A stretch of 64,000 nt of DNA from Candidatus Methanoperedenaceae archaeon GB37 (lineage in GTDB: Archaea > Halobacteriota > Methanosarcinia > Methanosarcinales > EX4572-44), in assembly GCA_905171695.1 (NCBI GenBank), contig LR991653.1:1146150-1210149 (forward strand). Direction: 5' to 3'. This document shows, one piece after another, positions 2,160-64,000 of this stretch. A model generated the notes under the pieces. It was not told the DNA's origin. It worked only from the letters and a program-made list of their open reading frames with translations, and searched no databases. Each line of letters starts with the position of its first letter. Within the stretch, counting starts at the first letter, position 1. The position numbers and the translations under genes are program-made.

Positions 2160-2397
2160 TGATAACTACCCCAAATCATGTAAAATAAAGGAAAAAGACG
2201 AAAAAATAAAAGATGTAAAAGGGAAGAATGAGCTTTTCTGGCGAAACAATTCCACATTTGGTTAAGTTGGGTTGGAAATGTGGTGTAAATCAAAGATCAT
2301 GGGTTTTTGTGGTTGGTGTCGTCGCTCTTGGTGGTTATGATAAAGATTATCAAGTAGTAGGGGTGTTACTGCGACTTAGTCCTGGTTGTGGTTGTAA

Positions 2398-3837
2398 ATG
2401 GCTTTCAGTGATCTTCGTGAGTTTATGGCTCTTCTTGAGGAGCGTGGTCTGTTGAAGCGTGTTAGTGTTGAGGTTGATCCTTTTCTTGAGATTACTGAGA
2501 TTGTGGATCGGCTTGTGAAGAGTGGTGGTTGCGCTGTTCTCTTTGAGAATGTGAAGGGTTATGATCTTCCTGTGCTTGCGAATCTCTTCGGGAGTATGGA
2601 GCGTATCTGTCTTGCTCTTGGTGTTGATGATCTTGATGATGTTGGTCGTCGGATTGAAGAGTTGTTGCGGTTTGATGCTCCGGGTGGTCTTCGTGGTGGT
2701 TTAAGGATGCTTTCAAGGTTGAGAGAGTTTGCAGGGTTCAAGCCGAGGATCGTTAAAACGGGGCCGTGTAAGGAGGTTGTGCTCAGGGGTGGTGATGCGA
2801 GTCTTGATCGTTTCCCGATTCTTACGTGCTGGCCTGGTGATGGTGGTCCTTTCATAACGCTTCCGCTTGTTTTTACGAAGAACCCGAGGACTGGGCGGCA
2901 GAATGTTGGGATGTATCGGATGCAGAAGTTTGATTCGAGTACTACTGGGATGCACTGGCAGATTCATAAGCATGGTGCGCGGGACTTTGAGGATGCTGAG
3001 GAGCGGCTTGAGGTTGCGGTTGTGATTGGGGCTGATCCAGTGGTCGTCTATGCTGCAACTGCGCCTCTCCCGGAGGGCTTTGATGAGATCTTCTTTGCAG
3101 GCTTTCTCAGGGGAAAGGGTGTTGATCTTGTGAAGTGTGAGAGTGTTGACCTCTTCGTCCCTGCTGGTTCTGAGATCGTGCTTGAGGGCTATGTGGAGGT
3201 TGGAGAGACGCGGATGGAGGGTCCTTTTGGAGATCACACGGGTTATTATTCGCTCCCTGACATTTACCCGGTCTTCCATATTACGTGTATCACTCATCGG
3301 AGAAGTCCGATATATCATGCCACTGTCGTTGGGCGTCCACCGATGGAGGATGCGTATCTTGGCAAGGCGACGGAACGCATATTCCTCCCTATCTTACGTG
3401 CTCACTTCCCTGAGATCGTGGATATGAATCTGCCTGTTGAGGGTGTCTTTCATAACCTTGCGATCGTCTCGATCGATAAGCGGTATCCGGGTCATGCGAG
3501 GAAGGTGATGCTGGGACTATGGGGCTTGGGTCAGATGAGTTTCACGAAGGTCTTGATCGTGGTGGATCGTGATGTTAATGTGCACGATATTAGCGAGGTG
3601 CTCTGGGCGGTCACCACAAGGATCGATCCAGCGAGGGATGTGATCCTGATCCCGAACACTCCGACCGACACACTCGATCATGCGTCTTCGATTCCGAATC
3701 TTGGTTCGAAGATGGGTATCGATGCCACGATAAAGCGAGAGGATGAGGGTTTTATGAGGGAGTGGCCTAGCGTTCTCACTATGAGAGAGGATATAAAAAA
3801 AATGGTGGATGAAAAATGGGGTAATTATGGATTGTAG
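2398..3837 (+). CDS. UbiD-family prFMN-dependent decarboxylase (menaquinone-biosynthesis MqnL-like subfamily)
   Basis: 479 aa with GGPFITLP, NVGMYRMQ, EGPFGDHTGYY and GSKMGIDAT motifs. Confidence 0.9.
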   Translation: MAFSDLREFMALLEERGLLKRVSVEVDPFLEITEIVDRLVKSGGCAVLFENVKGYDLPVLANLFGSMERICLALGVDDLDDVGRRIEELLRFDAPGGLRGGLRMLSRLREFAGFKPRIVKTGPCKEVVLRGGDASLDRFPILTCWPGDGGPFITLPLVFTKNPRTGRQNVGMYRMQKFDSSTTGMHWQIHKHGARDFEDAEERLEVAVVIGADPVVVYAATAPLPEGFDEIFFAGFLRGKGVDLVKCESVDLFVPAGSEIVLEGYVEVGETRMEGPFGDHTGYYSLPDIYPVFHITCITHRRSPIYHATVVGRPPMEDAYLGKATERIFLPILRAHFPEIVDMNLPVEGVFHNLAIVSIDKRYPGHARKVMLGLWGLGQMSFTKVLIVVDRDVNVHDISEVLWAVTTRIDPARDVILIPNTPTDTLDHASSIPNLGSKMGIDATIKREDEGFMREWPSVLTMREDIKKMVDEKWGNYGL

Positions 3838-3842
3838 ACCCT

Positions 3843-4559
3843 TTATTTTTCTACCTCACCTTCTTCGAGCTGGCGCATGATCTCTTCGTATTCGAGTGGG
3901 TGTTCGGCCTTCATCTGTCTCTCTGGGATGAGTCCTGTCACCCATACCTTTGACATTGGGAAGAGATCCGGGTTGTAGTGGACGTTCCACCAGTGCCATA
4001 TGACGATGGCGAGTGTTGCAAGGAGTGCTTCATCGCTGTGTATTATGTGCATTATATGCACGAAGGATAGCGGTAGAGCATTCCAGAACGGTGGATAGAG
4101 GAGGACAGGTCCTGAGACGCACATGATCACCATGCCCCAGAGAGCGCCCCAGTAGTCGAACTTCTCCTTCCAGCTGTATCTTGCGTACTTTGGAAACTCT
4201 GCCTTTCCAAAGTAGTATTTCATGAGTTGCCAGAAGTCTTTCAGGTCTTTCAGGTCAGCATCGGGTAACACTGCCTTGGGGCCACGATCTATCACCAGGT
4301 AGTAGATGACATGGTATAGTCCTATCAAGACCATTCCAATACCTGCAGCGTGGTGGATGAGTGATCGCATCTCGTATCCACCGAGAATATCTATCACTAT
4401 TGGTGCCCACCACTGGTCGTTGTACTTTATGGGCATTCCTGTTATCACAAGGAGAGAGAACGTGATCATTATCCCCAGGTGCTGGAGCACCTGGTTTACT
4501 GTGAAACGCTTGAAGTACCTCTCCTTCTCAACATTGGGATTGTTCTCTTTCTGTGACAT
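3843..4559 (-). CDS. Cytochrome b/b6-domain membrane protein (FdnI/formate dehydrogenase gamma-like)
   Basis: 238 aa, four hydrophobic segments, His ligand candidates (QH, HH, HIIHS, HWW) and the RYSWKEKFDYW motif. Confidence 0.8.
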   Translation of the reverse strand: MSQKENNPNVEKERYFKRFTVNQVLQHLGIMITFSLLVITGMPIKYNDQWWAPIVIDILGGYEMRSLIHHAAGIGMVLIGLYHVIYYLVIDRGPKAVLPDADLKDLKDFWQLMKYYFGKAEFPKYARYSWKEKFDYWGALWGMVIMCVSGPVLLYPPFWNALPLSFVHIMHIIHSDEALLATLAIVIWHWWNVHYNPDLFPMSKVWVTGLIPERQMKAEHPLEYEEIMRQLEEGEVEK

Positions 4560-4573
4560 CTTACTTCATCTCC

Positions 4574-5542
4574 TTAAAAGTGTCTCTTCAGTTTGATTCG
4601 CGTGAGAAGGTCCAGCAGGACGAAGATTATCAGTACGATTGCAACTGTGCATGTTAGAATGATGAAGAAGATCTCGATATAGAACGCCAGATTGATCGGA
4701 CCAAGATAATATGCGCGCTCCTTTATATCAAGCTTTGACTTATCAAAGACAAGGTCGGGCTTCTGTGCGTGCTGGTTGTAATGCGTCATGCCCATCCATA
4801 CCCTGGCACCAGGTTTCACGCCCTTGTGGCATCCTTCCTTCCCACACGTACCACCAAGATTAGATTTTGATATGGATGATGTCGGGTCGTCCTCACTCTT
4901 GACCGCGTGAGTGCCATGACAGTCAAGACACGTTGCAGCCTTCAATTGTCCAAATTTGAAGGCTTTCCAGTGATACGAATCCTCGTATGTCTCAAGGACT
5001 TCTGTATCCACGCCGTACTTCTCCATCATCTCATGATTGGCGTGGCATCTTACGCACATCTCAAGCTGCTTTGGTCGGTACGTCGGCGAGGCAGGATCTG
5101 ATACCGCTATAACACCATGCCCGCCCCCGTGGCAATCACGGCACTCTGGAGCATCAGGTTTCTCGGGTGTTACCCGATGCACGCTTGATTCGTAATCATC
5201 ACCGACCTCTTCGTGGCACTTTGAGCAGAATTCTGGAGCTTCAGTCCTTGTCGGTGCGCCAACAAAGTTGCCAGACATCACGTCTTTCGTGATCAGACTA
5301 CCGTTTGTGAGATGAACGCCACCATGACAGTCCATACAGTCAACACCATTTACATAATGGACACTCTCTCTAATCTCTGTAACCGCCTCTCTATGGCATG
5401 AGTAACATTCGGAAGAGTCTCCCCCTGCCATGACTCCGATTGGCAGCATGATAGTTAAAGCGAGCATGAGTTGGAGTACGATCATAACCCTGACCACTTC
5501 TCTGCTTCTTCCTCTCTTCAGCCTCTCAAGTTCGAACTTCAA
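4574..5542 (-). CDS. Membrane-anchored multiheme c-type cytochrome (6 CxxCH + 1 CX4CH)
   Basis: CYSCH, CMDCH, CSKCH, CRDCH, CVRCH, CLDCH and CGKEGCH. N-terminal signal/TM segment and C-terminal TM helix. Confidence 0.9.
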   Translation of the reverse strand: MKFELERLKRGRSREVVRVMIVLQLMLALTIMLPIGVMAGGDSSECYSCHREAVTEIRESVHYVNGVDCMDCHGGVHLTNGSLITKDVMSGNFVGAPTRTEAPEFCSKCHEEVGDDYESSVHRVTPEKPDAPECRDCHGGGHGVIAVSDPASPTYRPKQLEMCVRCHANHEMMEKYGVDTEVLETYEDSYHWKAFKFGQLKAATCLDCHGTHAVKSEDDPTSSISKSNLGGTCGKEGCHKGVKPGARVWMGMTHYNQHAQKPDLVFDKSKLDIKERAYYLGPINLAFYIEIFFIILTCTVAIVLIIFVLLDLLTRIKLKRHF

Positions 5543-5754
5543 TATATATCACCTACATTTGATAATATGTACAATTGCTTACGCATCAATTTGTTTGACC
5601 ATACACTACTATGGGTCGTAATTAGAGTCAGTCGCTATAAAAAGTTTGTTCTTTTGTTCTGAACGATAGAAAAGACTATAACTCTACCAGTGCATTCAGG
5701 GATGTGAGAGTCGATAGCAAGGTCTTCTGTATAAAAGTGTTCTTGTTGATTGGA

Positions 5755-7521
5755 ATGGTGAGAGAGCTTAGAACTCCGATTGTATCTGTGATGGGGCATG
5801 TTGATCATGGCAAGACGACCCTGCTTGACAGGATCAGGGGTACTGCTGTTGCTGCAAGAGAGGCTGGGCTGATAACCCAGCACATCGGGGCTACAGAGAT
5901 TCCCATCGAGGTTATCCAGAGGATCTGTGGTAAGGATGCGACCGGAAAGATTACGCTCCCGGGGCTTCTCTTCATCGATACACCTGGACATCGTGCGTTC
6001 ACTACGCTGCGCTCCCGGGGTGGGGCGCTCGCGGATATTGCCGTTCTGATCGTTGACATAAACGAGGGTTTCAAGCCTCAGACGATTGAATCGCTCAATA
6101 TACTGCGGGATCAGAAGACGCCTTTTCTTGTGGCAGCAAACAAGATTGATCGTTTGCATGGGTGGGTTGTGAGAGAGGATGTGGGCTTTCATGAGGCGTA
6201 CAGTCTGCAGGCAGAGCATGTGAGGCAGATGCTTGATACGATGATCTATGAATTGATAGGAAAGCTCTACGAACACGGGTTCAGTGCTGAGCGCTACGAT
6301 CGGATCAAGGACTTCCAGAAGAATATAGCGGTGGTGCCGATCAGTGCAAAGACAGGTGAGGGGCTGCCAGATCTTCTGATGGTACTGCTTGGGCTTTCAC
6401 AGCGATTCCTCGAGAGAGATCTCTCCTACAGCACCACACGCCCTGGTGTTGGAACCATACTTGAGGTGAAAGAAGAGGTAGGGCTTGGAACAACACTTGA
6501 CATTATACTCTACGATGGGAGGATAGAGGTTGGAGACAGTATAGCGGTCGGAGGCATGGAGGGTGTCATAACCTCGAAGGTGCGTGCTCTCCTTAAGCCA
6601 GCACCTCTCTCTGAGATTCGTTCAGAAGAGGGTTTTCTACATGTAAAGAAGGTGATCGCTGCTGCTGGTGTGAAGATTGTTGCACCGAATATGGAGGGGG
6701 CGGTTGCAGGTGCGCCGCTTCGGGTGATCGACTCTGAGACGGAGTATAATGTGGTAGAAGAGATGCAGCAGGATATGAAGAGCGTGCTGATAGAGACTGA
6801 GAGTACAGGCGTCACCATAAAGGCAGATACTCTTGGCTCGCTTGAGGCAATTGTGAACGAGCTTAAAAGGGATAACATACCAATCAGACGAGCAAATATC
6901 GGTGATATAACCAAAAAAGATGTTATAGAGACCAACACTTTAAAGAACTATTTTTACAGGGTTATTATTGGATTTAATGTGAAATTGCTGCCTGATGCGA
7001 AGGAAGAACTCGAAGAGAGCGATGTGAAACTATTCATTGGTAATGTAATATACAGGTTGATCGAAGACTACGGGTCATGGGTGGAGGAAGAGAGAGATCA
7101 TGCATATAAGAAGCAGGGCGAGGTTATAGTGAGACCCGGACGGTTCAAAATACTACCACACTGCATCTTTCGCCAGAGTAAGCCAGCAGTTGTCGGAGTG
7201 CAGGTTCTTGGGGGGGTGATCAAAACAAGGCTCGGTCTGATAAAGGAGGACGGGAAGAACGTGGGCGTGATAAAAGGGCTGCAGGACGCGGGAGAGAATA
7301 TAAGCGAGGCACGGTACGGAGACGAGGTTGCAGTGGCAATCGATGGACCTGTCGTGGGCAGACAGATCAAAGAGAACGAGATCTTATACGTCGACATACC
7401 AGAGCACCACTCGAAGATAATCGAGTTCGACCTTAAAGATAAGCTCTCACCAGATGAATATGAGACATTCGAAGCTTTTCTTGCGATAAAGAGACGAAAC
7501 AATCCTTTCTGGGGAAAATAA
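5755..7521 (+). CDS. infB: Translation initiation factor IF-2 (aIF5B)
   Basis: GHVDHGKTT, DTPGH and NKID GTPase motifs. Start taken at ATG 5755 (MVRELRTPIV). Confidence 0.97.
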   Translation: MVRELRTPIVSVMGHVDHGKTTLLDRIRGTAVAAREAGLITQHIGATEIPIEVIQRICGKDATGKITLPGLLFIDTPGHRAFTTLRSRGGALADIAVLIVDINEGFKPQTIESLNILRDQKTPFLVAANKIDRLHGWVVREDVGFHEAYSLQAEHVRQMLDTMIYELIGKLYEHGFSAERYDRIKDFQKNIAVVPISAKTGEGLPDLLMVLLGLSQRFLERDLSYSTTRPGVGTILEVKEEVGLGTTLDIILYDGRIEVGDSIAVGGMEGVITSKVRALLKPAPLSEIRSEEGFLHVKKVIAAAGVKIVAPNMEGAVAGAPLRVIDSETEYNVVEEMQQDMKSVLIETESTGVTIKADTLGSLEAIVNELKRDNIPIRRANIGDITKKDVIETNTLKNYFYRVIIGFNVKLLPDAKEELEESDVKLFIGNVIYRLIEDYGSWVEEERDHAYKKQGEVIVRPGRFKILPHCIFRQSKPAVVGVQVLGGVIKTRLGLIKEDGKNVGVIKGLQDAGENISEARYGDEVAVAIDGPVVGRQIKENEILYVDIPEHHSKIIEFDLKDKLSPDEYETFEAFLAIKRRNNPFWGK

Positions 7522-7537
7522 GAGTCAGTGATCTGAT

Positions 7538-8473: not shown

Positions 8474-8502
8474 CCATATTCGAAAAAAGAATTTTCAAAG
8501 TT

Positions 8503-12112: not shown

Positions 12113-12136
12113 ATTTTTTTTACCTGCGCGTTATCT

Positions 12137-15651: not shown

Positions 15652-15659
15652 TTCTCCAC

Positions 15660-51305: not shown

Positions 51306-51313
51306 TTGCTGAC

Positions 51314-51890: not shown

Positions 51891-51899
51891 GGTGATAAT

Positions 51900-52354: not shown

Positions 52355-52360
52355 TGAAAA

Positions 52361-52828: not shown

Positions 52829-53072
52829 GTGGATGAAATTAAAGAAATCTTCAAAGATAACCGATTTGCACTCTCATTAACTCTTATCGCATTTACAATC
52901 TGGTTATCCTCAGTTCCACAGGCGAGAACCAATTTATTTGCAGAAGGGATAGGTGATCTCGGTCTCATTACAATTCTACCAGTAACCTATTTTATAGCGT
53001 TTTCGCTGCTCACAATCTCTTTTCTTATTGCTTTGAAGTCTGAGAAAAAGAATGAGATGTTGCTGTTTTTGC
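52829..53072 (+). pseudogene. N-terminal fragment of a multi-pass membrane protein interrupted by IS debris
   Basis: Two hydrophobic helices (…GDLGLITILPVTYFIAFSLL…); the frame runs into the IS copy at 53073. Confidence 0.45.
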
Positions 53073-54050: not shown

Positions 54051-54115
54051 TACTAATTACACTTTACTCGAATTCTTTAATTTCTATGATGAACCGTCCC
54101 AGTGGTCATTTAATT

Positions 54116-54700: not shown

Positions 54701-54874
54701 AATTTTATGTGGACGGATCCATCCCGTTTTACAGCAGAGCTTATATAGTAGGAGGTAGGGTCTTCATAGTTGTTGATCGAGGCTGATCGGTCTTTTAGTC
54801 CCTCGCTTCTTCGTTTCAGATTAAATATCTAAAAAGAGTTTCTGCGTAGTAGAAAGGTGTGAAGGTGTGCTGGT

Positions 54875-57319: not shown

Positions 57320-57329
57320 AAGGATGGTC

Positions 57330-59321
57330 TCAGCGCGAAGCTCTCACATCCGGTTTGATTCTCTTCTTGAGTTCGGCGATCCTCTCTCTGAGTACGATCG
57401 CCCGTTCAAACTCGAGTTTATCAGCTGCTTCCATCATCTCCGCCTCGAGTTCTATGATCAGGTTTGGAATCTCTCTCCTGGGTATATGTCTTGTATCCTT
57501 CACCTCGATCTCTCTCTTTTTGATCGGTTTTATGATCGTCTTTGGAACGATTCCATGCTCTCTGTTATATGCCATCTGAATTCTTCTCCGCCGTTCTGTC
57601 TCTCTCACAGCCTCTCTTATAGAATCGGTCTCTTTATCTGCGTAGAGCACCACCTTTGAGTTCACGTTCCGTGCAGCTCTTCCTATCGTCTGTATCAGGC
57701 TTCTTGTGTCCCGCAGGAATCCTTCTTTGTCGGCATCGAGTATTCCGATGAACCCGACCTCTGGTATATCGAGTCCTTCTCGCAGGAGATTTATCCCGAC
57801 AAGAACGTCGAACCTTCCCAGTCGGAGCTCTCTTATTATCTCGGTTCGTTCGAGTGTATCGATCTCGGAATGCAGGTATCTTGTTTTTATCCCCTGTTCT
57901 GCAAGGTATTCTGCCAATTCTTCGGCAAGCCTCTTCGTGATCGTCGTAACAAGTACCCGGTCGCCACGTTCTATCGTGGCACCGATCTCCCTCTTCAGAT
58001 CGTTGATCTGACCTTTCACTGGCCGCACAAAGACCGCTGGATCAACGAGACCTGTGGGTCTTATGATCTGCTCAACCACCTGCGCCGACCTCTCTAGTTC
58101 ATACTCCCCTGGTGTCGCTGATGTGAAGATCACCGTGTTCCGCTTCATATACTCTTCGAACTCCTCGAACTTCAGGGGGCGGTTGTCGAGTGCGGTCTCC
58201 AGCCTGAAACCGTAATCGACGAGGGTCCTCTTTCTGGAGTAGTCACCATTGTACATCCCATGCAGCTGCGGGATTGTCTGGTGGCTTTCATCGATTATCA
58301 TCAAAAAATCGTCTCCAAAGTGGTCAAGGAGGGTATATGGCTTCTCTCCTCTCTTTCTCCCGTCGAAATGGAGAGAGTAATTCTCAATTCCCTTACAATA
58401 CCCTGTCTCTTCAATCATCTCGATATCATAGAGAGTTCTCTGTTTCAGTCGGTGGGCTTCGACCACTCCCAGCTTCGGAAGATTCCTCTCAAGCTCCGCT
58501 TTTATAGATGCTATCGCTTCCTTGATCCGGTCTTCAGGTATTACAAAGTGTCTTGCAGGATAGATAAAGAAATACTTCATCTTCTCTATGACCTCACCCG
58601 TGTTTCTGTCAATCTCAGAGATCGTCTCGATCTCATCCCCAAACATCTCCACACGTATGATATTGTTGAAGTATCCTGGGATCAGATCGATCGTATCACC
58701 CCTAACCCTGAAACGCCCTGGCATGAGTTCGATATCATTTCTCTCGAACTGTATCGAAACAAGTCTCTTCAAGAACTCAACTCTCGGCATCCTCTGCCCA
58801 ACCATTATCTCAAAACCCATCTTCCTAAAACTCTCAGGGCTTCCGATGCCATAAATACACGAGACCGATGCAACGATAATCACATCCCTTCTCGAGGATA
58901 GCGATGCGGTCGCGGCAAGCCTCATCTGATCGATCTTAGGGTTTATCTTGGCATCCTTCTCGATGTACTGATCCTTCTGCGGAATGTACGATTCTGGCTG
59001 GTAGAAGTCGTAATACGAGACGAAGTACTCAACCCTATTCTCTGGAAAGAACTCTTTGAACTCGTTATAGAGCTGAGCTGCAAGGGTCTTGTTGTGAGCG
59101 AGAACGAGCGTCGGCTTCTGGACCTCGTTTATGACATTTGCTATGGTGAACGTCTTCCCTGAACCTGTGACACCAAGGAGTGTCTGGTAGTTATAGTTCC
59201 TTCTTATGCCTTCAACCAGCTTACGTATCGCTTCTGGCTGCGAGCCCTTCGGCTTGAAGTCCGATTTTAATTTAAATTGGTATTTTTTAATAGAATTTTC
59301 ATCTTGTTCCATGATCACCAA
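57330..59321 (-). CDS. uvrB: Excinuclease ABC subunit B
   Basis: GVTGSGKT, HNKTLAAQL, YDFYQPE, IDESH, GLDIPEV, GRAARN, FERAIVLR. Confidence 0.97.
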   Translation of the reverse strand: MVIMEQDENSIKKYQFKLKSDFKPKGSQPEAIRKLVEGIRRNYNYQTLLGVTGSGKTFTIANVINEVQKPTLVLAHNKTLAAQLYNEFKEFFPENRVEYFVSYYDFYQPESYIPQKDQYIEKDAKINPKIDQMRLAATASLSSRRDVIIVASVSCIYGIGSPESFRKMGFEIMVGQRMPRVEFLKRLVSIQFERNDIELMPGRFRVRGDTIDLIPGYFNNIIRVEMFGDEIETISEIDRNTGEVIEKMKYFFIYPARHFVIPEDRIKEAIASIKAELERNLPKLGVVEAHRLKQRTLYDIEMIEETGYCKGIENYSLHFDGRKRGEKPYTLLDHFGDDFLMIIDESHQTIPQLHGMYNGDYSRKRTLVDYGFRLETALDNRPLKFEEFEEYMKRNTVIFTSATPGEYELERSAQVVEQIIRPTGLVDPAVFVRPVKGQINDLKREIGATIERGDRVLVTTITKRLAEELAEYLAEQGIKTRYLHSEIDTLERTEIIRELRLGRFDVLVGINLLREGLDIPEVGFIGILDADKEGFLRDTRSLIQTIGRAARNVNSKVVLYADKETDSIREAVRETERRRRIQMAYNREHGIVPKTIIKPIKKREIEVKDTRHIPRREIPNLIIELEAEMMEAADKLEFERAIVLRERIAELKKRIKPDVRASR

Positions 59322-59689
59322 TACACTCTTTGCATGTCAGTGTCATACATACACAGTAACAAGACTTTATCTAATTTATAGCCATCTCAACAACTCCTGA
59401 TACTTATAAACTCACCTACCCAGTCTCGTGAATAACCATACTTTCTCATACCAAATAACTCTAATGAGCCCTTTGCAAAACTTCTGTTCAAAGATATCTA
59501 TACCGCCTTCTATATTGGAATCCGTTCCAGAACCACTTATCCACCATCTTTTGCCTAATTTATTCCTTGGTCACCTTTATTTCTACCTATTTTCCCGCTA
59601 TTTCTTGAGAACTTACGCTATTACCTCTTTCATAGTCATTCCTCTAATTTTCTGCACTAATAAACTCATCTACCCAGTAACTTGAGTAG

Positions 59690-59885
59690 CCCTGTTTTCT
59701 CTCATCAAATAGATCCAATGCTACTCCTTCACAACTCTTGATCATCTCACCAAAGTCAAGAATATTGCTTAACTCTCTCTTTAAATCCTTCCAATCAAAC
59801 TCGATAGGATTTAAGTCGGGAGAATAGAGTGGAAGATAAATAAAATGGATGTCAAGTTCTTCTGCTTTAGCTGCTACAACCCCTG
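59690..59885 (-). pseudogene. IS630-family transposase C-terminal remnant
   Basis: IHFIYLPLYSPDLNPIEFDWKDLKREL. Confidence 0.8.
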
Positions 59886-59918
59886 GAGGTGAAGTTGTTT
59901 TAGGGATGAACTATAGTT

Positions 59919-61196
59919 TCAAGTGCTTCCTTCAATACTGGCGCCAAGTCTTCTCATATCTTCAAAGAAGTTTGGATATGAGATCTTGACAGACTCTGCT
60001 GTGCTGATGGTGGTGTTGCCTGCTGCAATCCCTGCAAGTGTCAGTGCCATTACGATTCGGTGATCACCCCAGCCATCGAGTTTCGCGCCATGCAGTTTCG
60101 ATCCTTTGATCGTCAAACTCTCTTCTTCCTCCTTCACAATAGCGCCCATCTTTGTAAGTTCTCTTGCCATGGCGTGGACTCGATCTGTCTCTTTGTAGCG
60201 GACGTGTTTTGCGTTTTCAATCCGGGTGGTGCCCTCTGCAAGAGCGCCGAGCACTGCAAGAGTTGGCAGCAGGTCTGGAGTCTCTCCGACATCGATCACA
60301 CACCCTGTGAGCTCGCTCTCTCTCACTCTAACAACCCCTTTATTCTTGTTCCATCTGATGTCTGCACCCATCTCTTCGAGTATCTGGATGATCAGAGAAT
60401 CGCCCTGGGCAGTTGGGTACATATTGGTGACTGTTACCTCGCCGAAGAGCGCGCCTGCTGCAAGCAGGTACGAGGCTGATGAGAAGTCACCTGGAACCTG
60501 GTACTCTGAGACATGCATATTCTGCCCGCCTTCTACCCTGAATCTCAGGTTCACGCCCTCTTCGACCGTTATCTCCACTCCTGCACGTCTTAGCATCTCA
60601 AGTGTGATCTCCACATAAGGCCGTGACTTGAGCGTGCCCCGAACCACGATCTCTGTATCCCGCTCTGCAAACGGGCATGCTATGAGGAGCCCTGTGATGA
60701 ACTGTGAACTGACCGATCCGTCAATAAACGTCTTTCCACCGCGCAGCTTGCCCCGCACAACGAGTGGCGCCATCCCATTGTTACGGGTTGAAAAAGCGTC
60801 TGCGCCAAGATCGTTGAGTGCAACGAGGAGTGGATTGTTGGGGCGCCGCCTGATCGATGCATCACCAGTCAAGACCACGGCACCACTCGCAAGGGCAGAT
60901 ACAGCGGTCATGATCCTGAGAGTGGTTCCAGAGTTACCAACGTCAACGACATTATCTGGAGTGCTTATCTCCCCCTGGGTGCCGATGACCTGAATATGAT
61001 CTTCCAACCGTTCAACCTCTGCACCAAGCATCCGAGCGACATGCATGGTGCTGCGCGTATCATCCGATATCAGCGGGTCAAGAACGCGCGTTCTTCTGGC
61101 AAGTGATGCGATAGCCACTGCTCGATGGGTATAACTCTTGGATGGCGGAGCATTAACCACACCCTCCAACCGGGAAGATGAGACTCTCACATCCAT
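59919..61196 (-). CDS. aroA: 3-phosphoshikimate 1-carboxyvinyltransferase
   Basis: PPSKSYTHRA, GNSGTTLR, SSQF, RYKETDR, DHRIVM, SYPNFF. Start taken at ATG 61196. Confidence 0.96.
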   Translation of the reverse strand: MDVRVSSSRLEGVVNAPPSKSYTHRAVAIASLARRTRVLDPLISDDTRSTMHVARMLGAEVERLEDHIQVIGTQGEISTPDNVVDVGNSGTTLRIMTAVSALASGAVVLTGDASIRRRPNNPLLVALNDLGADAFSTRNNGMAPLVVRGKLRGGKTFIDGSVSSQFITGLLIACPFAERDTEIVVRGTLKSRPYVEITLEMLRRAGVEITVEEGVNLRFRVEGGQNMHVSEYQVPGDFSSASYLLAAGALFGEVTVTNMYPTAQGDSLIIQILEEMGADIRWNKNKGVVRVRESELTGCVIDVGETPDLLPTLAVLGALAEGTTRIENAKHVRYKETDRVHAMARELTKMGAIVKEEEESLTIKGSKLHGAKLDGWGDHRIVMALTLAGIAAGNTTISTAESVKISYPNFFEDMRRLGASIEGST

Positions 61197-61391
61197 AGTC
61201 CAATAGAGATGCATCCTGCTTAATAACACTATTGTCTAAATGGCTACCTGGCTACAGGCTCTCACAGTCCTGATTCGCAAGAGCAGATCCCAAACCGGGT
61301 TTGAGTATCTTCTCGTGATGCACAGGAAGTTATAAGACTCTCTGGTCCATCTTGATCATGAATCCTAAAATTGCGAAGGATCGTTCGATAG

Positions 61392-62717
61392 ATGACGAGG
61401 CGAGTGATAATCATTGGCGGCGGGCTTGCAGGGCTCACAGCAGCATACAGCCTCACGGGATCTGGCTATGAGACACTCATCTTCGAGAAGGATTCCGTTC
61501 TGGGTGGAATGCTTGCAAGTTACAACATCAACGGATACTCGATCGAGAAGTACTATCATCACCTCTTCGAATCGGACAACGAGCTTCTCCACCTGATCGA
61601 CGAACTTGGACTCAGGGAGAGAGTTGAGTGGCTTCGAGCCACAACCGGCTACTACACTCGTGGAAGAGTCTTTCCACTCAACACACCGATCCAGCTATTG
61701 AGATACCCGGATCTCAAGGTCACAGATATGATCAGATTGGCACGATTCGTGATGCGATCAAGGAAGATAGAAGACCCGATCGCTCTCGATGAAGTCACGG
61801 CGCGAGAATGGATACTCAGATCTGCCAACCGATCCATCTTTGACAACTTCTTTGCACCACTCCTCAAGAGCAAGTTCGGAAGAGAGATGGACCGGGTCTC
61901 TGCCGCATGGTTATCAAGCCGGATCAATCTTCGCTCCAATCGCGGACTTCGCGGCGAGAGGCTCGGATACATTCGCGGAGGATTTGAAGAGCTGATAAGA
62001 GCGATCGAGAGAGAGATTAGAGAACGCGGTGGAGTGATCAGGTGCAACACAGAAGTGGACCGTATCACCATTGAAGAGGGTGAAGCGACTGGAGTTGAAA
62101 TAGGGGGGTCTTTCGTCCCTTCAGATGCTGTGATCTCCACAGTCCCACCAAGCCAAGAGAAGAAAACTCCAGCTACACCGAAGATACCTGAACTCGAGAA
62201 CGGGACAGGCACCCACCCAACTGGCAGTGGTATCAGGTACCAGGGGAGTCTATGCCTCCTGATAGGACTTGAAGAGCGATTGATGAAAGAGACATACTGG
62301 CTCAACATAAGACCGGAGACGCCATTCGGAGCGGTGATAGAGCACACAAACCTCATACCACCTGAAGAGTACAGCGGCGATCACCTCGTATACCTCGCCA
62401 CATACCTTCAGGAGGCCGATGAGAGCCTCATGACCGCGCGAGAAGAAGAGGTGGCAGAACTCTACATAACCGCCCTTGAGAAACTCTTCCCAACATTTAA
62501 TAGAGAGAAGGTGCTCTGGTGGAGACTTGCAAGAGAGAGGTGCACAGCACCAATCTATGAAACAGGATATCGAAAGAGAATCCTCCCATATAAGACCCCG
62601 ATCAAGAACCTATACCTTGCAGGGATCTTCTCACACCCAAACTACCCTGAGCGCAGCATGAACGGGTCAATAAGAGCAGGAATTGCCTGTGCAGGTGAGA
62701 TCATCAAAGCAGTCTGA
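61392..62717 (+). CDS. FAD-dependent oxidoreductase (protoporphyrinogen oxidase/amine oxidase-like)
   Basis: IIGGGLAGLTAA, GGML, EKYYHH, ERSMNG. Confidence 0.8.
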   Translation: MTRRVIIIGGGLAGLTAAYSLTGSGYETLIFEKDSVLGGMLASYNINGYSIEKYYHHLFESDNELLHLIDELGLRERVEWLRATTGYYTRGRVFPLNTPIQLLRYPDLKVTDMIRLARFVMRSRKIEDPIALDEVTAREWILRSANRSIFDNFFAPLLKSKFGREMDRVSAAWLSSRINLRSNRGLRGERLGYIRGGFEELIRAIEREIRERGGVIRCNTEVDRITIEEGEATGVEIGGSFVPSDAVISTVPPSQEKKTPATPKIPELENGTGTHPTGSGIRYQGSLCLLIGLEERLMKETYWLNIRPETPFGAVIEHTNLIPPEEYSGDHLVYLATYLQEADESLMTAREEEVAELYITALEKLFPTFNREKVLWWRLARERCTAPIYETGYRKRILPYKTPIKNLYLAGIFSHPNYPERSMNGSIRAGIACAGEIIKAV

Positions 62718-62793
62718 GTCAATTCACAGTTCGGAGATCAATATCCCTCTCGTGGGGTTAAGTTTATTTCATGTAAATATAATACTTTACTCT

Positions 62794-63109
62794 TGGCGGG
62801 ATAGCCTGGGCAATTCGACGTTGCCTGTAACCCGAAACCGTCGATATGCGGGGGGCGAAGCCAATGGAAGATATCCTGCTCCTCTGTGCCAGCCCATGAG
62901 GATAACGGTGAAGTCTCGTCCCGTGGGGATGGTGTTGCCATGAAGGGCCGCTGGAGAGTGGTTCTTCATGGCTTAATCATGGAGAACGGTTCAGGCCCGG
63001 AAGGGAGCAGACCAGCCATGAACAACCATCGCTCATGGGGCTGCGGGATGGAGAAGTCCTCTGGACCACTGGGCAGTGGAGGGGATAGCGACCTGCGGCA
63101 CTCCCGCCA
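62794..63109 (+). ncRNA. ffs: Archaeal signal recognition particle (7S) RNA
   Basis: Helix-8 signature CAGGCCCGGAAGGGAGCAG at 62992-63010; 5' TGGCGGGA pairs with 3' TCCCGCCA; TGTAA Alu-domain motif; 316 nt; AT-rich promoter-like sequence upstream. Confidence 0.92.
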
Positions 63110-63166
63110 CAATCTAAAGAGTGTGATCAGTTAATCGGTTGTTAAATCTGAGCTGATTTTATTGGA

Positions 63167-63988
63167 ATGAGTCTCATGCTGGACGTTGGTATTGTTGGCT
63201 GCGGTGCCATCGGAACGATACTTGCTAGGTTTATAACAGAAGATGCCAGCGGGCTCAGGCTCGTATCGATATCTGACAGGCACATCGAGAAGTCGGAGAG
63301 GCTTGCCTCAACCCTCACCCCCCAACCCCTGATAGAGAGCGTCTCGCAGATGGCTGAGCATACAGATGTCATCGTCGAGTCCGCCTCAGTCTCAGCAGTT
63401 CCTGAAGTAGCAAGAACAGCGCTCTCACACGGCTCTCAGGTTATGATAATGAGTGTTGGAGCTCTCGCAGACCCAGAGCTCAGAAGTGAACTGGTGGAGC
63501 TTGCCAAGAAGAACAATACCAAGATACATGTTCCATCAGGTGCAATAATTGGAATCGACGGCATCAAAGCAGCTAAGATCATTGGGATGAAGAGAGTGGT
63601 TTTGAAGACCAGAAAACACCCAGAAAGCCTCAAAGACGCACCATACATCAAAGAAAAGAGAATAAACCTCGATTCTCTCACCGAAGAAACCCTTATATTC
63701 ACAGGAACAGCAAGAGAAGCCACCACCGCCTTCCCAACAAATATCAACGTTGCAGCCACCCTCAGCCTATCAGGCATAGGACCTGAGAAGACGAGTGTGG
63801 AGATATACGCAGACCCACATCTAACCAGAAACGTTCACGAGATAGAGGTTGAAGGCAGTTTCGGCAGGTTCACAACAAGAGTTGAGAACGTGCCATCTTC
63901 AGAGAATCCACGAACAAGCTACCTCGCAGCCCTCTCAGCCATAGCAACCCTCAAAAAGATGACAGAACCATTACAGATAGGCACCTGA
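63167..63988 (+). CDS. nadX: L-aspartate dehydrogenase
   Basis: VGCGAIG, ESAS, MSVGAL, PSGAIIGID, FPTNINVAA, NPRTSYLAA. Confidence 0.93.
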   Translation: MSLMLDVGIVGCGAIGTILARFITEDASGLRLVSISDRHIEKSERLASTLTPQPLIESVSQMAEHTDVIVESASVSAVPEVARTALSHGSQVMIMSVGALADPELRSELVELAKKNNTKIHVPSGAIIGIDGIKAAKIIGMKRVVLKTRKHPESLKDAPYIKEKRINLDSLTEETLIFTGTAREATTAFPTNINVAATLSLSGIGPEKTSVEIYADPHLTRNVHEIEVEGSFGRFTTRVENVPSSENPRTSYLAALSAIATLKKMTEPLQIGT

Positions 63989-64000
63989 AGGATGACCAAT

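What the first reader, a model, noticed from the sequence alone, without database searches (positions are those of the whole stretch)
2200..64000. Kilobase-scale sawtooth G+T versus A+C strand skew, largely independent of gene orientation
Seen, from hand counts of + strand G+T in single 60-nt lines: 70% (2401) vs 32% (13501), both + genes; 77% (26161) vs 32% (30421), both - genes; 62% (45481) vs 32% (47761) in one + operon; 67% (55141) vs 30% (57001) within gyrA, returning to 63% at 57481. The 5' ends of + genes can be AC-rich (38% at 12301, 35% at 40081), so a simple 5'-to-3' transcription-unit gradient does not explain everything. Each core block starts GT-rich and drifts to AC-rich, with abrupt resets at accessory islands and convergent gene ends (~2.2, 8.5, 26, 33.6, 41.5/44.8, 54.8, 57.3, 59.9 kb). 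Known: deamination of exposed ssDNA (C>T, A>G) makes the lagging-strand template GT-rich, and an AC-to-GT jump marks a bidirectional initiation site. Inference: replication, or another strand-exposing process, starts repeatedly at sites a few kb apart, possibly recombination- or R-loop-dependent, and those sites are also insertion hotspots.
Basis: partly seen in the sequence, partly recalled or inferred. Interest (0 to 1): 0.75.

Follow-up and report, generated by a model that had tools for sequence, protein, structure and literature searches.

The report
Kilobase sawtooth of strand composition
In this ethane-oxidising archaeon and its closest relatives, silent codon positions swing from about 90% G+T to about 10% G+T every 2-6 kb, resetting abruptly at some gene-cluster borders; this mutational footprint is finer and stronger than any replication or transcription skew I could find described, and points to an unidentified strand-exposing DNA process.

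Summary
All eleven hand counts are exact. In 500-nt windows, + strand G+T runs from 0.31 to 0.70. At third codon positions it runs from about 0.9 to about 0.1.

The axis is pure transitions: C/T and A/G shift together, while purine content and GC3 stay constant.

Core DNA (GC about 0.5) forms 2-6 kb blocks that fall roughly linearly from keto-rich to amino-rich, then jump up within tens of bases. Low-GC islands are flat.

The trait is limited to the GoM-Arc1 clade (Ethanoperedens, Argoarchaeum). Methanoperedens, Methanothrix, Methanospirillum and bacteria lack it.

The sawtooth is antisymmetric under reverse complement, so orientation independence is partly automatic. On the coding strand, keto content falls 5' to 3' in 27 of 29 inferred transcription units.

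Every jump lies at a gene border. About a third of convergent, divergent and spaced tandem junctions carry one, including a pair of overlapping stop codons. Islands are not needed.

Polarised substitutions show the bias is ongoing and changes when gene order changes.

Best reading (0.45): a DNA-tracking process starts at discrete intergenic sites and ends at variable points, like human N-domains shrunk about 300-fold. Replication itself is not shown.

The parts
2257..5612 (.). Block A (UbiD +, hyp238 -, multihaem cytochrome -). Third-position G+T on the + strand falls from about 0.89 to about 0.4-0.5. It spans a convergent junction (3837/3843) with no reset.
5612..8492 (.). Block B (aIF5B +, VLRF1-like release factor +), 0.74 to 0.25. 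The left border is weak (+0.17) at a divergent promoter gap. The right border (+0.43) lies in the 29-nt gap between convergent stop codons.
8492..13819 (.). Block C (T2SSF -, T2SSE/FlaI-like ATPase -, KaiC-like 1 and 2 +), 0.64 to 0.08. There is a downward step at 12159, at the 24-nt divergent gap. The KaiC genes are amino-rich from their 5' end. The block ends at the KaiC2 stop codon.
13820..25303 (-). Island 1. GC is 0.35-0.45 and keto content is flat (third positions 0.41-0.49, apart from the small first gene hyp164 at 0.62). It carries small ORFs, a type IIG/DrmMI-like methyltransferase (16723-20085), an HKD+Snf2 helicase-nuclease (20075-23848) and an IS4-type DDE transposase (23897-25303).
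25304..30794 (.). Block D. It comprises non-coding keto-rich DNA holding a decayed GH65 fragment (25687-25820, 88% identical to 26737-26870), then GH65 -, beta-PGM/trehalose-phosphatase - and VIT1 -. The fitted third-position G+T falls from 0.97 to 0.20. The block ends 200 nt upstream of the VIT1 start.
30795..33442 (-). Island 2 (GC 0.29-0.41): an HD-domain protein and two small ORFs. Positions 32678-33317 are repeated in inverted orientation at 53073-53722.
33443..36022 (.). Block E (methyltransferase +, Rrp4-like +, macro-domain -), 0.74 to about 0.45. The left border lies 196 nt upstream of the start codon. There is no reset at the convergent junction.
35857..38233 (-). Block F (GluRS -, FMN reductase -), 0.72 to 0.37. 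Its borders lie at the GluRS 3' end and at the overlap between the M50 stop and the FMN reductase start.
38233..41481 (.). Block G (M50 peptidase -, radical SAM +), 0.63 to 0.15. There is a downward step at the divergent gap near 39.9-40.0 kb. The block ends 63 nt before the radical SAM stop codon, which is 66 nt upstream of the S8e start.
41477..41733 (+). Left copy of a direct repeat. It holds the last 68 nt of the radical SAM gene plus the 5' part of S8e, with an internal deletion. It is fused to a beta-propeller/PGF-CTERM ORF. The repeat marks the original rSAM|S8e border.
41734..44768 (+). Island 3 (GC 0.36-0.43), lying between the two S8e repeat copies.
44769..48412 (+). Block H (right repeat copy, then S8e, PyrB, PyrI, DsrE-like, geranylgeranyl reductase, all +), 0.84 to 0.26 across one operon-like cluster.
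48413..54685 (.). Island 4 (GC 0.33-0.44, flat): a PIN toxin, a GT2 glycosyltransferase and small ORFs. A close strain (L168) shares only 54201 onwards.
54686..57352 (+). Block I (GyrA), 0.89 to 0.28. The border lies 189 nt upstream of the ATG. The gradient is linear in six slices: 0.81, 0.74, 0.66, 0.53, 0.47, 0.30.
57352..59846 (-). Block J (UvrB), with low amplitude: 0.56 to 0.44. The border at the 10-nt convergent gap with GyrA is weak (+0.22).
59846..62750 (.). Block K (EPSP synthase -, amine-oxidase-type flavoprotein +), 0.56 to 0.35. There is no reset at the divergent gap.
62794..64000 (+). Block L: archaeal SRP RNA (62794-63109), then aspartate dehydrogenase, whose third-position G+T falls from 0.45 to 0.27.

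Best explanation
What it is. The skew is a strand-asymmetric transition bias (C>T together with A>G on one strand). Its sign and strength are set by position between discrete borders, not by the gene.

Proposed mechanism. A DNA-tracking process that exposes one strand starts at a subset (about one third) of the gaps between transcription units. It moves away in both directions and stops at variable points. The strand that runs 5'->3' away from a border becomes keto-rich (G+T). The same strand becomes amino-rich (A+C) as it approaches the next border. Averaged over many events, this gives a near-linear fall from about 0.85-0.9 to about 0.1-0.25 at silent sites, whatever the block length, with an abrupt upward jump at each border.

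Simplest physical form. DNA synthesis (replication-like, primed by R-loops or recombination, or long strand-displacement repair tracts) starts at these sites about every 3 kb in a slow-growing 37-50 C archaeon. The displaced or lagging-template strand stays single-stranded long enough for cytosine and adenine to deaminate. This is the logic of human skew N-domains at roughly 1/300 of their size and with several times their amplitude.

Shown here:
- the transition signature;
- its concentration at synonymous sites;
- the block geometry and its scaling with length;
- the sharpness of the borders and their lack of dependence on gene orientation;
- restriction to one lineage;
- ongoing, context-dependent substitution bias.

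Inferred, not shown: that single-stranded exposure and deamination cause the bias; that the borders are start sites rather than stop sites; and that the process is DNA synthesis.
For: 1. Signature. At fourfold sites G/(G+A) goes 0.20->0.80 and T/(T+C) goes 0.18->0.79. Purine fraction (0.45-0.54) and GC3 (0.45-0.49) stay flat. The result is the same for + and - genes.

2. Mutational, not coding. The order of strength is third position > first and second positions. Non-coding flanks and a GH65 pseudogene fragment share the skew. GyrA amino-acid composition follows the gradient, which is absent in Methanoperedens.

3. Substitution rates match the composition. On the L081 branch, in the 5' half of gyrA, C>T is 0.28 against T>C 0.07, and A>G is 0.26 against G>A 0.04. 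These rates predict about 0.8 keto, and 0.64-0.78 is observed.

4. Two-ended geometry. Of the 11 core segments from the segmentation, 8 start at 0.63-0.97 and end at 0.15-0.38 over lengths of 2.3-5.7 kb. The mean drop per transcription unit is about constant (0.29-0.44), while slope goes from -0.31 per kb in short units to -0.12 per kb in long ones. The 6.3-kb uvrACB cluster has a slope of only -0.06 per kb.

5. Sharp borders. Change-points resolve to +/-10-30 nt, for example 2257 [2254-2266] and L084 9696 [9680-9702] on overlapping stop codons.

6. Borders ignore gene orientation. Significant upward jumps occur at 3 of 9 convergent, 4 of 11 divergent, 6 of 14 spaced tandem and only 3 of 38 tight operon junctions. 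Over all junctions there are 27 upward against 5 downward jumps. All 13 jumps of 0.4 or more are upward.

7. Context dependence. The 5' slice of gyrA has third-position keto content of 0.81, 0.78, 0.67 and 0.40 in four lineages with different upstream neighbours, yet all converge to 0.18-0.30 at the 3' end. After a change of neighbours, the L085 gyrA 5' half shows 42 keto>amino against 1 amino>keto changes. After UvrB left the uvrACB cluster, its 5' third shows 8 amino>keto against 0 in the reverse direction.

8. The same N shape, with upward jumps at initiation zones and a linear fall between them, is established for human replication domains (PMC3320577).
Against: - Borders about 3 kb apart would imply several hundred start sites in a 1.9-Mb archaeal chromosome. 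Known archaea use one to a few origins.
- No ORB-like repeat, shared motif, hairpin or Cdc6 gene was found at the borders. Some borders lie inside overlapping coding sequence with no AT-rich stretch.
- Significant downward steps occur at five junctions, including the divergent promoters at 12159 and about 39.9 kb, and need an extra assumption.
- One four-gene cluster (L170 HMGL-SAICAR) is flat and amino-rich over 4 kb.
- Every border is also a transcription-unit border, so a transcription-linked cause is not excluded.
- The sign is uncertain. If the bias came from G.T misincorporation into newly made DNA rather than from deamination of exposed templates, replication-fork borders would be convergence points or barriers. 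Repair tracts copied outward from border nicks or breaks would also fit.
- The evidence covers 64 kb plus about 120 kb from relatives. There are no transcript maps and no replication data.
Confidence: 0.45

Rival explanations
1. Mutagenesis linked to transcription units. The non-template strand is exposed near the 5' end (bubbles, R-loops, negative supercoiling behind the polymerase), so the coding strand becomes keto-rich there. A second process, polar along the transcript, loads the template strand toward the 3' end. Candidates are antisense or read-through transcripts, repair synthesis on the template strand, or conversion by 3'-primed cDNA.
For: - Coding-strand keto content at third positions falls 5'->3' in 27 of 29 inferred units (p = 1.6e-6). 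It is below 0.5 at the 3' end in 28 of 30 units and above 0.5 at the 5' end in 23 of 30.
- The gradient runs on across genes inside operon-like clusters, with only 3 of 38 tight junctions resetting.
- Keto-rich domains begin 66-320 nt upstream of start codons, consistent with promoters or 5' UTRs. A conserved TATA-like element lies just inside the gyrA domain in two species.
- In a very slow-growing organism, transcription may account for most single-stranded DNA time.
- Mammalian transcribed regions have a known G+T excess on the coding strand (from memory: Green et al. 2003).
Against: - At 3' ends the template strand is the keto-rich one, which is the opposite of non-template exposure.
- At overlapping convergent stop codons (L084 9696) the sign flips within about 20 nt, from 0.10 to 0.83. 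Continuity of polymerase flux then requires a start site there that outweighs sense transcription.
- Two divergent promoters show downward steps and five show none.
- KaiC1/2, the radical SAM gene and L170 HMGL-SAICAR are amino-rich from their 5' ends. UbiD and the L085 CBS genes stay keto-rich to their 3' ends.
- Relative position within the unit explains only 31% of the variance, against a ceiling of about 82%.
- The near-equal amplitude of the positive and negative halves is not expected from two unrelated processes.
- No trace of such a gradient appears in 346 Methanothrix genes, where the slope is +0.0015 per kb.
Confidence: 0.28
2. Same geometry, different event. The borders are hotspots of nicks or double-strand breaks (topoisomerase or gyrase action at unit ends, mobile-element activity). 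Alternatively they are fork barriers. The bias would then come from error-prone resynthesis, in which G.T mispairs make the newly copied strand keto-rich, over kilobase-long resection or repair tracts.
For: - The geometry fits as well as the best explanation does.
- Islands, partial gene duplications and a transposase sit at the strongest borders, as expected if breaks recur there.
- The genome is heavily rearranged among relatives: gyrA has a different neighbourhood in each of the four lineages compared.
Against: - If deamination of 3' tails left by 5'->3' resection were the cause, the sign would be the reverse of what is seen (my derivation). The model works only under the misincorporation assumption.
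- Nothing marks the sites.
- The extreme equilibrium composition needs these events to dominate all mutation.
Confidence: 0.12
3. Selection on mRNA or codon usage, for example messages that are GU-rich at the 5' end and AC-rich at the 3' end.
For: The pattern can be phrased per transcript.
Against: - Untranslated flanks and a pseudogene fragment share the skew.
- Whole genes sit at either extreme regardless of strand.
- There is no reset at start codons inside operons.
- Amino-acid composition is dragged along.
- Silent-site substitution rates alone predict the observed composition.
- Selection strong enough to push fourfold sites to 0.1 or 0.9 is implausible in a slow-growing syntroph.
Confidence: 0.04
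4. The accessory islands or a horizontal-transfer mosaic create the pattern. Either each block comes from a differently skewed donor, or replication starting inside an island skews its flanks.
For: The largest jumps in the window flank the four low-GC islands.
Against: - Maximal jumps occur without any island: L084 9696, L170 Ble-like|PAC2 and L170 Pus10|UvrA.
- The rSAM|S8e jump predates its island.
- Gradients run smoothly inside single conserved genes, and orthologues re-equilibrate to their context.
Confidence: 0.03
5. Sequencing or assembly artefact.
For: None found.
Against: - Reading frames are intact and the differences are synonymous.
- The same pattern appears in independent assemblies from different projects and samples (L001, L002, L081-L085, L168-L171). 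It is absent from 77 control loci that were fetched in the same way.
Confidence: 0.01

Closest known systems
Human skew N-domains (Touchon/Huvet/Arneodo-Thermes-Hyrien; PMC3320577, PMC2764438)
   Same: The same variable is involved (TA skew plus GC skew, which together are keto minus amino). The same N or sawtooth shape appears: abrupt upward jumps at borders, a linear decrease with a sign change in between, and profiles that superimpose after length is rescaled.
   Different: The blocks here are about 3 kb, against about 1 Mb in humans. The amplitude here is about +/-0.5-0.66 in GC and TA skew at fourfold sites, far above the few percent I recall for humans. The host is a prokaryote with a 1.9-Mb chromosome. 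Borders resolve to tens of bases at gene boundaries rather than to broad zones. No replication data exist here.
Replichore (leading/lagging) skew of bacteria and some archaea
   Same: Both show a G+T excess on one strand, attributed to deamination of exposed template, with a sign switch at origins.
   Different: Replichore skew has one or a few switches per chromosome and is step-like, not graded. It is weak in archaea (PMC12999951). In this window the mean G+T is 0.501, so there is no replichore-scale offset.
Transcription-associated strand asymmetry (E. coli C>T on the non-transcribed strand; mammalian G+T excess on the coding strand; 5'-end-localised asymmetry in human genes). Cited from memory.
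   Same: The transitions involved are the same. The effect is strongest near 5' ends and is bounded by transcription units.
   Different: Known cases keep one sign along the transcript and are weak. Here the sign reverses, and the template strand becomes the keto-rich one at 3' ends. Whole genes can carry the 'wrong' sign.
Vertebrate mitochondrial DNA gradient (time spent single-stranded during strand-displacement replication), and the twin APOBEC3 gradients in HIV cDNA that reset at polypurine tracts. Cited from memory.
   Same: The extreme silent-site skews are of similar size. The gradients are linear and reset at priming sites. The cause is deamination of long-lived single strands.
   Different: Those gradients affect one strand only, so they have a single sign, and they occur in small replicons. 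Here both strands are affected symmetrically within hundreds of chromosomal blocks.

Membership tests
Replication-fork-polarity skew domains (N-domain type) | Abrupt upward jumps of TA+GC (keto) skew, separated by a monotonic, near-linear decrease that changes sign | tested here: met
   Every core segment has a negative slope. Jumps resolve to +/-10-30 nt. The six gyrA slices fall linearly.
Replication-fork-polarity skew domains (N-domain type) | The profile rescales with domain length: border values stay constant and slope goes as 1/length | tested here: met
   The drop is 0.29-0.44 for units of 0.5-5 kb. The slope is -0.31 per kb (short units), -0.12 per kb (long units) and -0.06 per kb (the 6.3-kb uvrACB cluster). 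Spearman correlation of |slope| with 1/L is 0.40, p = 0.03, so support is moderate.
Replication-fork-polarity skew domains (N-domain type) | Borders coincide with mapped replication initiation sites, and skew is proportional to measured fork polarity | not testable with these tools
   This needs OK-seq, nascent-strand sequencing or marker-frequency data from Ethane37/50 cultures.
Archaeal Orc1/Cdc6-ORB origins | Repeated origin-recognition boxes around an AT-rich unwinding element, usually next to an orc1/cdc6 gene | tested here: not met
   There is no Cdc6/Orc1 domain among 40 proteins scanned. No repeat family is shared by the borders. 11 of 17 borders have an AT-rich 30-mer, but several lie in coding overlaps without one.
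Replichore leading/lagging skew | A constant skew sign over hundreds of kb, switching only at origin and terminus | tested here: not met
   There are about 12 sign changes in 64 kb, and the window mean G+T is 0.501.
Transcription-associated strand asymmetry | The coding (non-template) strand is enriched in G+T throughout the transcribed region, so the sign is set by gene orientation | tested here: not met
   Gene strand explains 2% of the variance. The coding strand is amino-rich at 28 of 30 unit 3' ends, and throughout KaiC1/2, the radical SAM gene and L170 HMGL-SAICAR.
Transcription-associated strand asymmetry | Domains are bounded by transcription start and end sites | tested here: inconclusive
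   All borders lie at gene boundaries, and tight operon junctions rarely reset. However, the units are inferred from spacing only. No transcript maps are available.
Deamination-type mutational signature | C>T and A>G are coupled on the same strand, while transversion axes (purine fraction, GC3) are unaffected | tested here: met
   (fourfold sites). (polarised rates 4-6.5: 1). Neighbour dependence is modest and shows no obvious APOBEC-like 5'-T preference (confounded by coding constraints).

The most novel reading that the evidence does not exclude
GoM-Arc1 archaea copy, or continually re-copy, their chromosome from several hundred discrete initiation sites spaced about 3 kb apart. The mode would leave one strand single-stranded for long periods (strand-displacement, R-loop-primed or recombination-primed synthesis). 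If so, a prokaryote carries a eukaryote-like, or mitochondrion-like, distributed replication programme that can be read directly from its sequence.
Probability: 0.25. Interest if true: 0.95.

Novelty: new variant of a known kind. Interest (0 to 1): 0.8.

Why it matters
The amplitude is about as large as composition can record. Silent sites swing between roughly 10% and 90% keto bases, and protein composition is dragged along. The pattern recurs every few kilobases and is confined to one small clade of alkane-oxidising archaea.

I found no description of it. It is absent from the paper that reports the closed Ethanoperedens genome, from a 2026 survey of archaeal skews, and from four further full-text searches.

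Whatever the process is, it dominates mutation in these genomes. It is position-specific to tens of bases, and it is re-set within the divergence time of congeneric species when gene order changes.

If it is DNA synthesis from many start sites, it would change the picture of archaeal replication. It would also give a sequence-only map of initiation sites in an organism that cannot be grown in pure culture.

If it is transcription-linked, it reveals an unknown process that mutates the template strand toward 3' ends.

There are practical consequences too. Codon-usage, horizontal-transfer and phylogenetic methods that assume stationary, strand-symmetric composition will be misled in this clade.

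Tried and rejected
1. Metagenome scan with aIF5B to collect more relatives. A universal GTPase motif swamped the patterns, and no hit exceeded 60% identity. The scan was wasted.

2. Polarising SNPs among four near-identical strains L081-L084. There were only about 45 polarised changes. The trend was in the expected direction in amino-rich zones (11 keto>amino against 7), but the test has no power.

3. Polarising window against L168 with distant outgroups. This was informative only as evidence of re-equilibration after rearrangement. Parsimony bias toward the common base is a caveat.

4. Neighbour-base context at fourfold sites, to look for an enzyme-like motif. C followed by G is the most depleted. 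There is no 5'-T preference. The result is confounded by coding constraints and was not pursued.

5. Border motifs, AT-richness and hairpins. No shared motif emerged. Folding z-scores at borders (-0.20) are no lower than at random positions (-0.51).

6. tRNA genes as integration sites: none in the window. Rfam found only SRP RNA.

7. Global models. Gene strand gives R2 = 0.02, distance from unit start 0.23 and relative position 0.31. All fall well short of the noise ceiling of about 0.82.

8. The idea that islands cause the jumps was rejected.

9. The idea that this is a faint universal pattern amplified in one clade: no gradient is detectable in Methanothrix (346 genes), Methanoperedens-like loci, Methanospirillum or bacteria.

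10. Exact look-up of the window's own GyrA returned nothing on record.

Full report
**Source of the window**

The window is archaeal: it carries an archaeal SRP RNA at 62794-63109. Its GyrA is 72% identical to that of Ca. Argoarchaeum ethanivorans and of a GoM-Arc1 MAG, which were the best hits in a scan of species-representative genomes. In the protein collection, the window's own GyrA cluster lies on a contig of 1,922,745 bp. The paper describing Ca. Ethanoperedens thermophilum reports a closed GoM-Arc1 genome of 1.92 Mb with 46.5% GC, grown at 37-50 C. That paper does not contain the word 'skew'. The window has 45.2% GC. I infer that the window comes from that organism or a near-identical strain.

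**Gene content**

Pfam scans give an ordinary gene set. It includes UbiD, a multihaem cytochrome, aIF5B, an archaellum/pilus-type ATPase and membrane protein, two KaiC-like ATPases, GH65 and trehalose-phosphatase, GluRS, an M50 protease, ribosomal protein S8e, PyrBI, GyrA, UvrB and EPSP synthase. These core genes are interrupted by four low-GC stretches carrying accessory genes.

**Checking the observation**

At 500 nt the + strand G+T fraction runs from 0.306 to 0.700. Its sd is 0.064, against 0.022 in base shuffles. GC skew and TA skew move together, each reaching about +/-0.4.

The stretches with GC near 0.50 form descending ramps. The stretches with GC 0.30-0.42 (13.8-25.3, 30.8-33.4, 41.7-44.8 and 48.4-54.7 kb) are flat near 0.5.

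The opposite is found.
- Third-position G+T is 0.78 in UbiD (0.88 in its first third) and 0.14 in KaiC2 (0.08 in its last third).
- Fourfold sites give 0.81 against 0.10.
- First and second positions move only a little, in the same direction.

A dynamic-programming fit of straight segments to third-position data yields 14 segments. It removes 7.8 of the 8.8 units of sum of squares above binomial noise. Core segments have slopes of -0.02 to -0.27 per kb. Eight of the eleven core segments start at 0.63-0.97 and end at 0.15-0.38, although their lengths range from 2.3 to 5.7 kb. Shuffling synonymous codons within genes removes most of the within-gene slope: -0.208 per kb observed against -0.054 +/- 0.024, with 0 of 200 shuffles as extreme.

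**Nature of the bias**

I grouped fourfold sites by local state. G/(G+A) rises from 0.20 to 0.80 and T/(T+C) from 0.18 to 0.79. Purine fraction and GC3 stay constant, and the table is the same for genes on either strand.

This is a single axis of coupled transitions: C<->T with A<->G on one strand. It is what deamination of cytosine and adenine on that strand would produce. G.T mispairing into a newly made strand would produce it as well.

Three observations argue against selection on coding.
- The skew extends 66-320 nt upstream of start codons (66-216 nt for the starts checked within the window), and 60-120 nt past stop codons.
- It is shared by a decayed GH65 fragment in non-coding DNA.
- It drags amino-acid composition with it. 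In GyrA, residues with keto-rich codons minus residues with amino-rich codons go from +0.11 (N-terminal slices) to -0.01 (C-terminal). In Methanoperedens the trend is the reverse.

**Restriction to one lineage**

The sd of G+T in 500-nt windows:

| Locus | sd |
|---|---|
| Window | 0.064 |
| Argoarchaeum locus (L001) | 0.061 |
| GoM-Arc1-GOS locus (L002) | 0.061 |
| L081 (closer relative, GyrA 85% identical) | 0.081 |
| L085 (closer relative, GyrA 83% identical) | 0.063 |
| Ca. Methanoperedens nitroreducens (L086) | 0.027 |
| Another relative at 67% identity (L087) | 0.031 |
| 75 other loci around gyrA (Methanothrix, Methanospirillum, bacteria) | 0.016-0.048 |

The within-gene third-position slope averages -0.152 per kb in 55 GoM-Arc1 genes. 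85% of these slopes are negative, and the half-difference test gives p = 2e-9. In 346 Methanothrix-group genes the slope is +0.0015 per kb, and it is not significant in any other group. So this is not a universal faint pattern that is merely easier to see here.

**A symmetry that matters for interpretation**

A ramp from keto-rich to amino-rich is its own reverse complement. Read on the other strand in the other direction, it is again keto-rich to amino-rich.

The same data can be described as a 5'->3' decline on the coding strand. I grouped co-oriented genes less than 100 nt apart into 30 putative transcription units, from the window and four relatives.
- The coding-strand third-position keto fraction falls 5'->3' in 27 of the 29 units longer than 0.5 kb (p = 1.6e-6).
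- The mean falls from 0.64 at the start to 0.30 at the end.
- The 3' end is below 0.5 in 28 of 30 units, and the 5' end is above 0.5 in 23 of 30.

The unit is not the whole story. The share of variance explained by each model:

| Model | R2 |
|---|---|
| Gene strand | 0.02 |
| Distance from unit start | 0.23 |
| Relative position within the unit | 0.31 |
| Free offset per unit plus a common slope | 0.64 |
| Noise ceiling | about 0.82 |

KaiC1/2, the radical SAM gene and a four-gene cluster in L170 are amino-rich from their first codon. UbiD and the CBS genes of L085 stay keto-rich to their last codon.

**Where the resets are**

Likelihood change-points are sharp, with support intervals of +/-10-30 nt, and all lie at gene boundaries:
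- 2257, 141 nt upstream of UbiD;
- 8492, in a 29-nt gap between convergent stop codons;
- 13819, at the KaiC2 stop;
- 30794, 200 nt upstream of VIT1;
- 33443;
- 38233, where the M50 stop overlaps the FMN reductase start;
- 41481, 66 nt upstream of S8e and inside the 3' end of the preceding gene;
- 54686, 189 nt upstream of GyrA.

All 12 internal breakpoints of the segmentation that I compared with the gene map fall within about 130 nt of a gene end.

The most telling case is in a relative (L084). Two convergent genes overlap by four bases at their stop codons. There the third-position keto fraction jumps from 0.10 to 0.83, with the change-point at 9696 [9680-9702].

**Junction statistics**

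I scored every gene junction in about 180 kb of GoM-Arc1 sequence. Results for junctions between core genes:

| Junction type | Significant upward jumps | Significant downward steps | Total |
|---|---|---|---|
| Convergent | 3 | 0 | 9 |
| Divergent | 4 | 2 | 11 |
| Tandem, gap of 60 nt or more | 6 | 0 | 14 |
| Tight operon (gap under 60 nt) | 3 | 3 | 38 |

Over all junctions there are 27 significant upward jumps against 5 downward. All 13 jumps of 0.4 or more are upward. Borders are thus a subset, roughly one third, of the gaps between transcription units, and they are chosen without regard to the orientation of the flanking genes.

**Islands**

The biggest jumps in the window do flank the islands, but the islands are not the cause.

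The 3-kb island at 41.7-44.8 kb lies between two copies of one segment (41477-41733 and 44769-45118). The copies are 96-98% identical. The segment holds the last 68 nt of the radical SAM gene plus the 5' part of S8e. The amino-to-keto jump sits at the start of the left copy. The original rSAM|S8e junction therefore already carried the jump, and the island landed about 250 nt inside the keto-rich domain.

The keto-rich non-coding DNA at 25.3-26.1 kb contains a decayed copy of part of GH65. Maximal jumps also occur far from any low-GC DNA: L084 9696, and in L170 Ble-like|PAC2 (+0.61) and Pus10|UvrA (+0.59).

Islands probably accumulate at borders because borders are the gaps between units, where insertions are tolerated. 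Their flat composition and low GC3 (0.2-0.35) suggest recent arrival. A recurrent-break explanation for both features remains possible.

**Scaling**

The drop across a unit is roughly constant (0.31, 0.29 and 0.44 for units of 0.5-1.5, 1.5-2.5 and 2.5-5 kb). The slope weakens from -0.31 to -0.12 per kb over the same classes. The 6.3-kb uvrA-uvrC-uvrB cluster of L170 falls only from 0.67 to 0.33, which is -0.06 per kb.

A process with a fixed decay length from one end would not behave this way. A process that interpolates between two ends would.

**Dynamics**

GyrA was compared in four lineages, in six equal slices at third positions:

| Lineage | Slice values | What lies upstream |
|---|---|---|
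| Window | 0.81 0.74 0.66 0.53 0.47 0.30 | island |
| L081 | 0.78 0.76 0.64 0.46 0.31 0.19 | 600-nt spacer |
| L085 | 0.67 0.58 0.48 0.37 0.28 0.19 | CoaBC in tandem |
| Argoarchaeum | 0.40 0.38 0.27 0.26 0.22 0.18 | gyrB in the same cluster |
| Methanoperedens | flat | - |

L081 and L085 are sisters, so the window can serve as outgroup to polarise synonymous changes.
- On the L081 branch, in the 5' half, C>T occurs at 0.28 per C against T>C at 0.07 per T. A>G is 0.26 against G>A at 0.04. These rates predict the observed composition.
- On the L085 branch, the same 5' half shows 42 keto>amino changes against 1 in the reverse direction. The bias at the same codons reversed after the neighbourhood changed.

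A strain 96-97% identical to the window (L168) gives a second case. In relatives, UvrB is the last gene of uvrACB and is amino-rich. In the window lineage UvrB stands alone next to gyrA. Polarised differences between the window and L168 are 8:0 amino>keto in the UvrB 5' third and 13:0 in the gyrA 3' third. Both fit re-equilibration to the new position, with the caveat that parsimony using distant outgroups favours the common base.

**Mechanism**

Any tracking process that exposes one strand gives upward jumps where it starts, in either direction, and declines where it ends.

For mRNA transcription, polymerase flux must be continuous across a junction that has no promoter. The flip at overlapping convergent stop codons would then need a start site there stronger than the sense transcription of both genes. 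More generally, at 3' ends the template strand is the keto-rich one. This is the opposite of the classical non-template exposure. Downward steps or no change at 7 of 11 divergent promoters point the same way.

The near-perfect antisymmetry (extremes about 0.9 and about 0.1), the length scaling and the indifference to orientation are natural for two converging copies of the same DNA-level process that start at the two borders. This is exactly the accepted reading of human skew N-domains: upward jumps at initiation zones, and a linear fall of fork polarity between them (PMC3320577).

I therefore rank a DNA-level, two-ended tracking process first, with confidence 0.45. DNA synthesis from many start sites is its simplest form. 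About 0.25 is my probability for replication proper.

What speaks against it:
- the unprecedented density of start sites for an archaeon;
- the absence of any origin-like sequence feature;
- the downward steps;
- the fact that all borders are also transcription-unit borders.

A transcription-linked two-component mechanism stays at about 0.28. Repair tracts from recurrent nicks or breaks, or borders acting as fork barriers under a misincorporation sign, are at about 0.12. The amplitude is comparable to vertebrate mitochondrial DNA. This suggests long-lived single strands or missing repair of uracil and hypoxanthine. Neither could be tested in a 64-kb window.

**Novelty**

I searched the held literature six times. 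The topics were strand asymmetry with archaea and sawtooth, keto skew, transcription-unit gradients, origin-independent replication, N-domains, and the clade's own genome papers. None returned a description of this pattern. The Ethanoperedens genome paper and a 2026 survey of archaeal skews do not mention it.

It belongs to a known kind, strand compositional asymmetry caused by strand-biased transitions, and it has a known shape, the N-domain. Its scale, amplitude, host and border sharpness are new.

**Limits**

- Transcription units were inferred from gene spacing only.
- Gene calls are longest-ORF calls checked by Pfam.
- The comparative set is about 120 kb from six relatives.
- Polarisation rests on two genes.
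- No experimental data on transcription, replication or single-stranded DNA are available for these uncultured consortia members.

Noticed in passing
window 41477-41733 and 44769-45118: Direct repeat, 96-98% identical, of the radical-SAM 3' end plus the 5' part of ribosomal protein S8e. It brackets a 3-kb low-GC island. The left copy has an internal deletion of about 81 nt. It is fused in frame to a beta-propeller protein with a PGF-CTERM anchor (41547-42902). This looks like integration by recombination with an element carrying a copy of the target.
   Followed up: partly
window 25687-25820 vs 26737-26870: An 88%-identical fragment of the GH65 gene lies in the non-coding gap between the IS4-type transposase and the GH65 3' end. 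It appears to be a partial duplication of a core gene at an island edge.
   Followed up: no
window 32678-33317 vs 53073-53722: A segment of about 640 bp is present in inverted orientation in two different islands 20 kb apart (89-98% identical). It covers small ORFs on both sides. Recombination between the copies would invert the 33-53 kb segment. Such an inversion would leave the sawtooth unchanged, because the sawtooth is reverse-complement symmetric.
   Followed up: no
window 16723-23848 (- strand): Defence-type gene pair inside island 1. One gene is a 1257-aa HKD(PLD)+Snf2 helicase-nuclease (PADLOC candidate C3a139, E = 7e-158). The other is a 1120-aa type IIG / DrmMI-like methyltransferase. 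An IS4-family DDE transposase follows at 23897-25303.
   Followed up: partly
window 42911-42952, 43664-43705, 44435-44476: Three copies of a 42-nt G+C-rich element spaced about 760 nt apart within island 3. This suggests three tandem paralogous small-gene units. The spacing is too wide for CRISPR.
   Followed up: no
window ~59377 (UvrB/EPSPS gap); L168 3695-4710: A strain 96-97% identical to the window carries an extra low-GC insert of about 1 kb (293-aa ORF, GC3 0.31) exactly in this 597-nt gap. The gap is one of the weak border sites. The two strains also differ completely to the left of window position 54201.
   Followed up: partly
window 54875-59321; L001, L081, L085, L170, L171: Gene order around gyrA and uvrB differs in every GoM-Arc1 genome examined. 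gyrB-gyrA are adjacent only in Argoarchaeum. uvrB is the last gene of uvrA-uvrC-uvrB in L170, and follows uvrC in L171, but stands alone beside gyrA in the window. This points to frequent rearrangement in the clade.
   Followed up: partly
whole window: Purine content tracks the coding strand: about 0.55-0.64 on the + strand over + genes and 0.37-0.45 over - genes. This purine loading is independent of the keto sawtooth.
   Followed up: no
window 15655-15845 vs 16543-16733: A 191-nt direct repeat (88% identical) inside island 1, just upstream of the methyltransferase gene.
   Followed up: no
L170 16067-16537: A dCMP/cytidine-deaminase-fold gene (PF00383, plus a MafB19-like deaminase hit) lies in a core gene cluster of the L081-type relative. 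It is probably ordinary nucleotide metabolism. It may still deserve a look, given the deamination-type signature of the clade.
   Followed up: no
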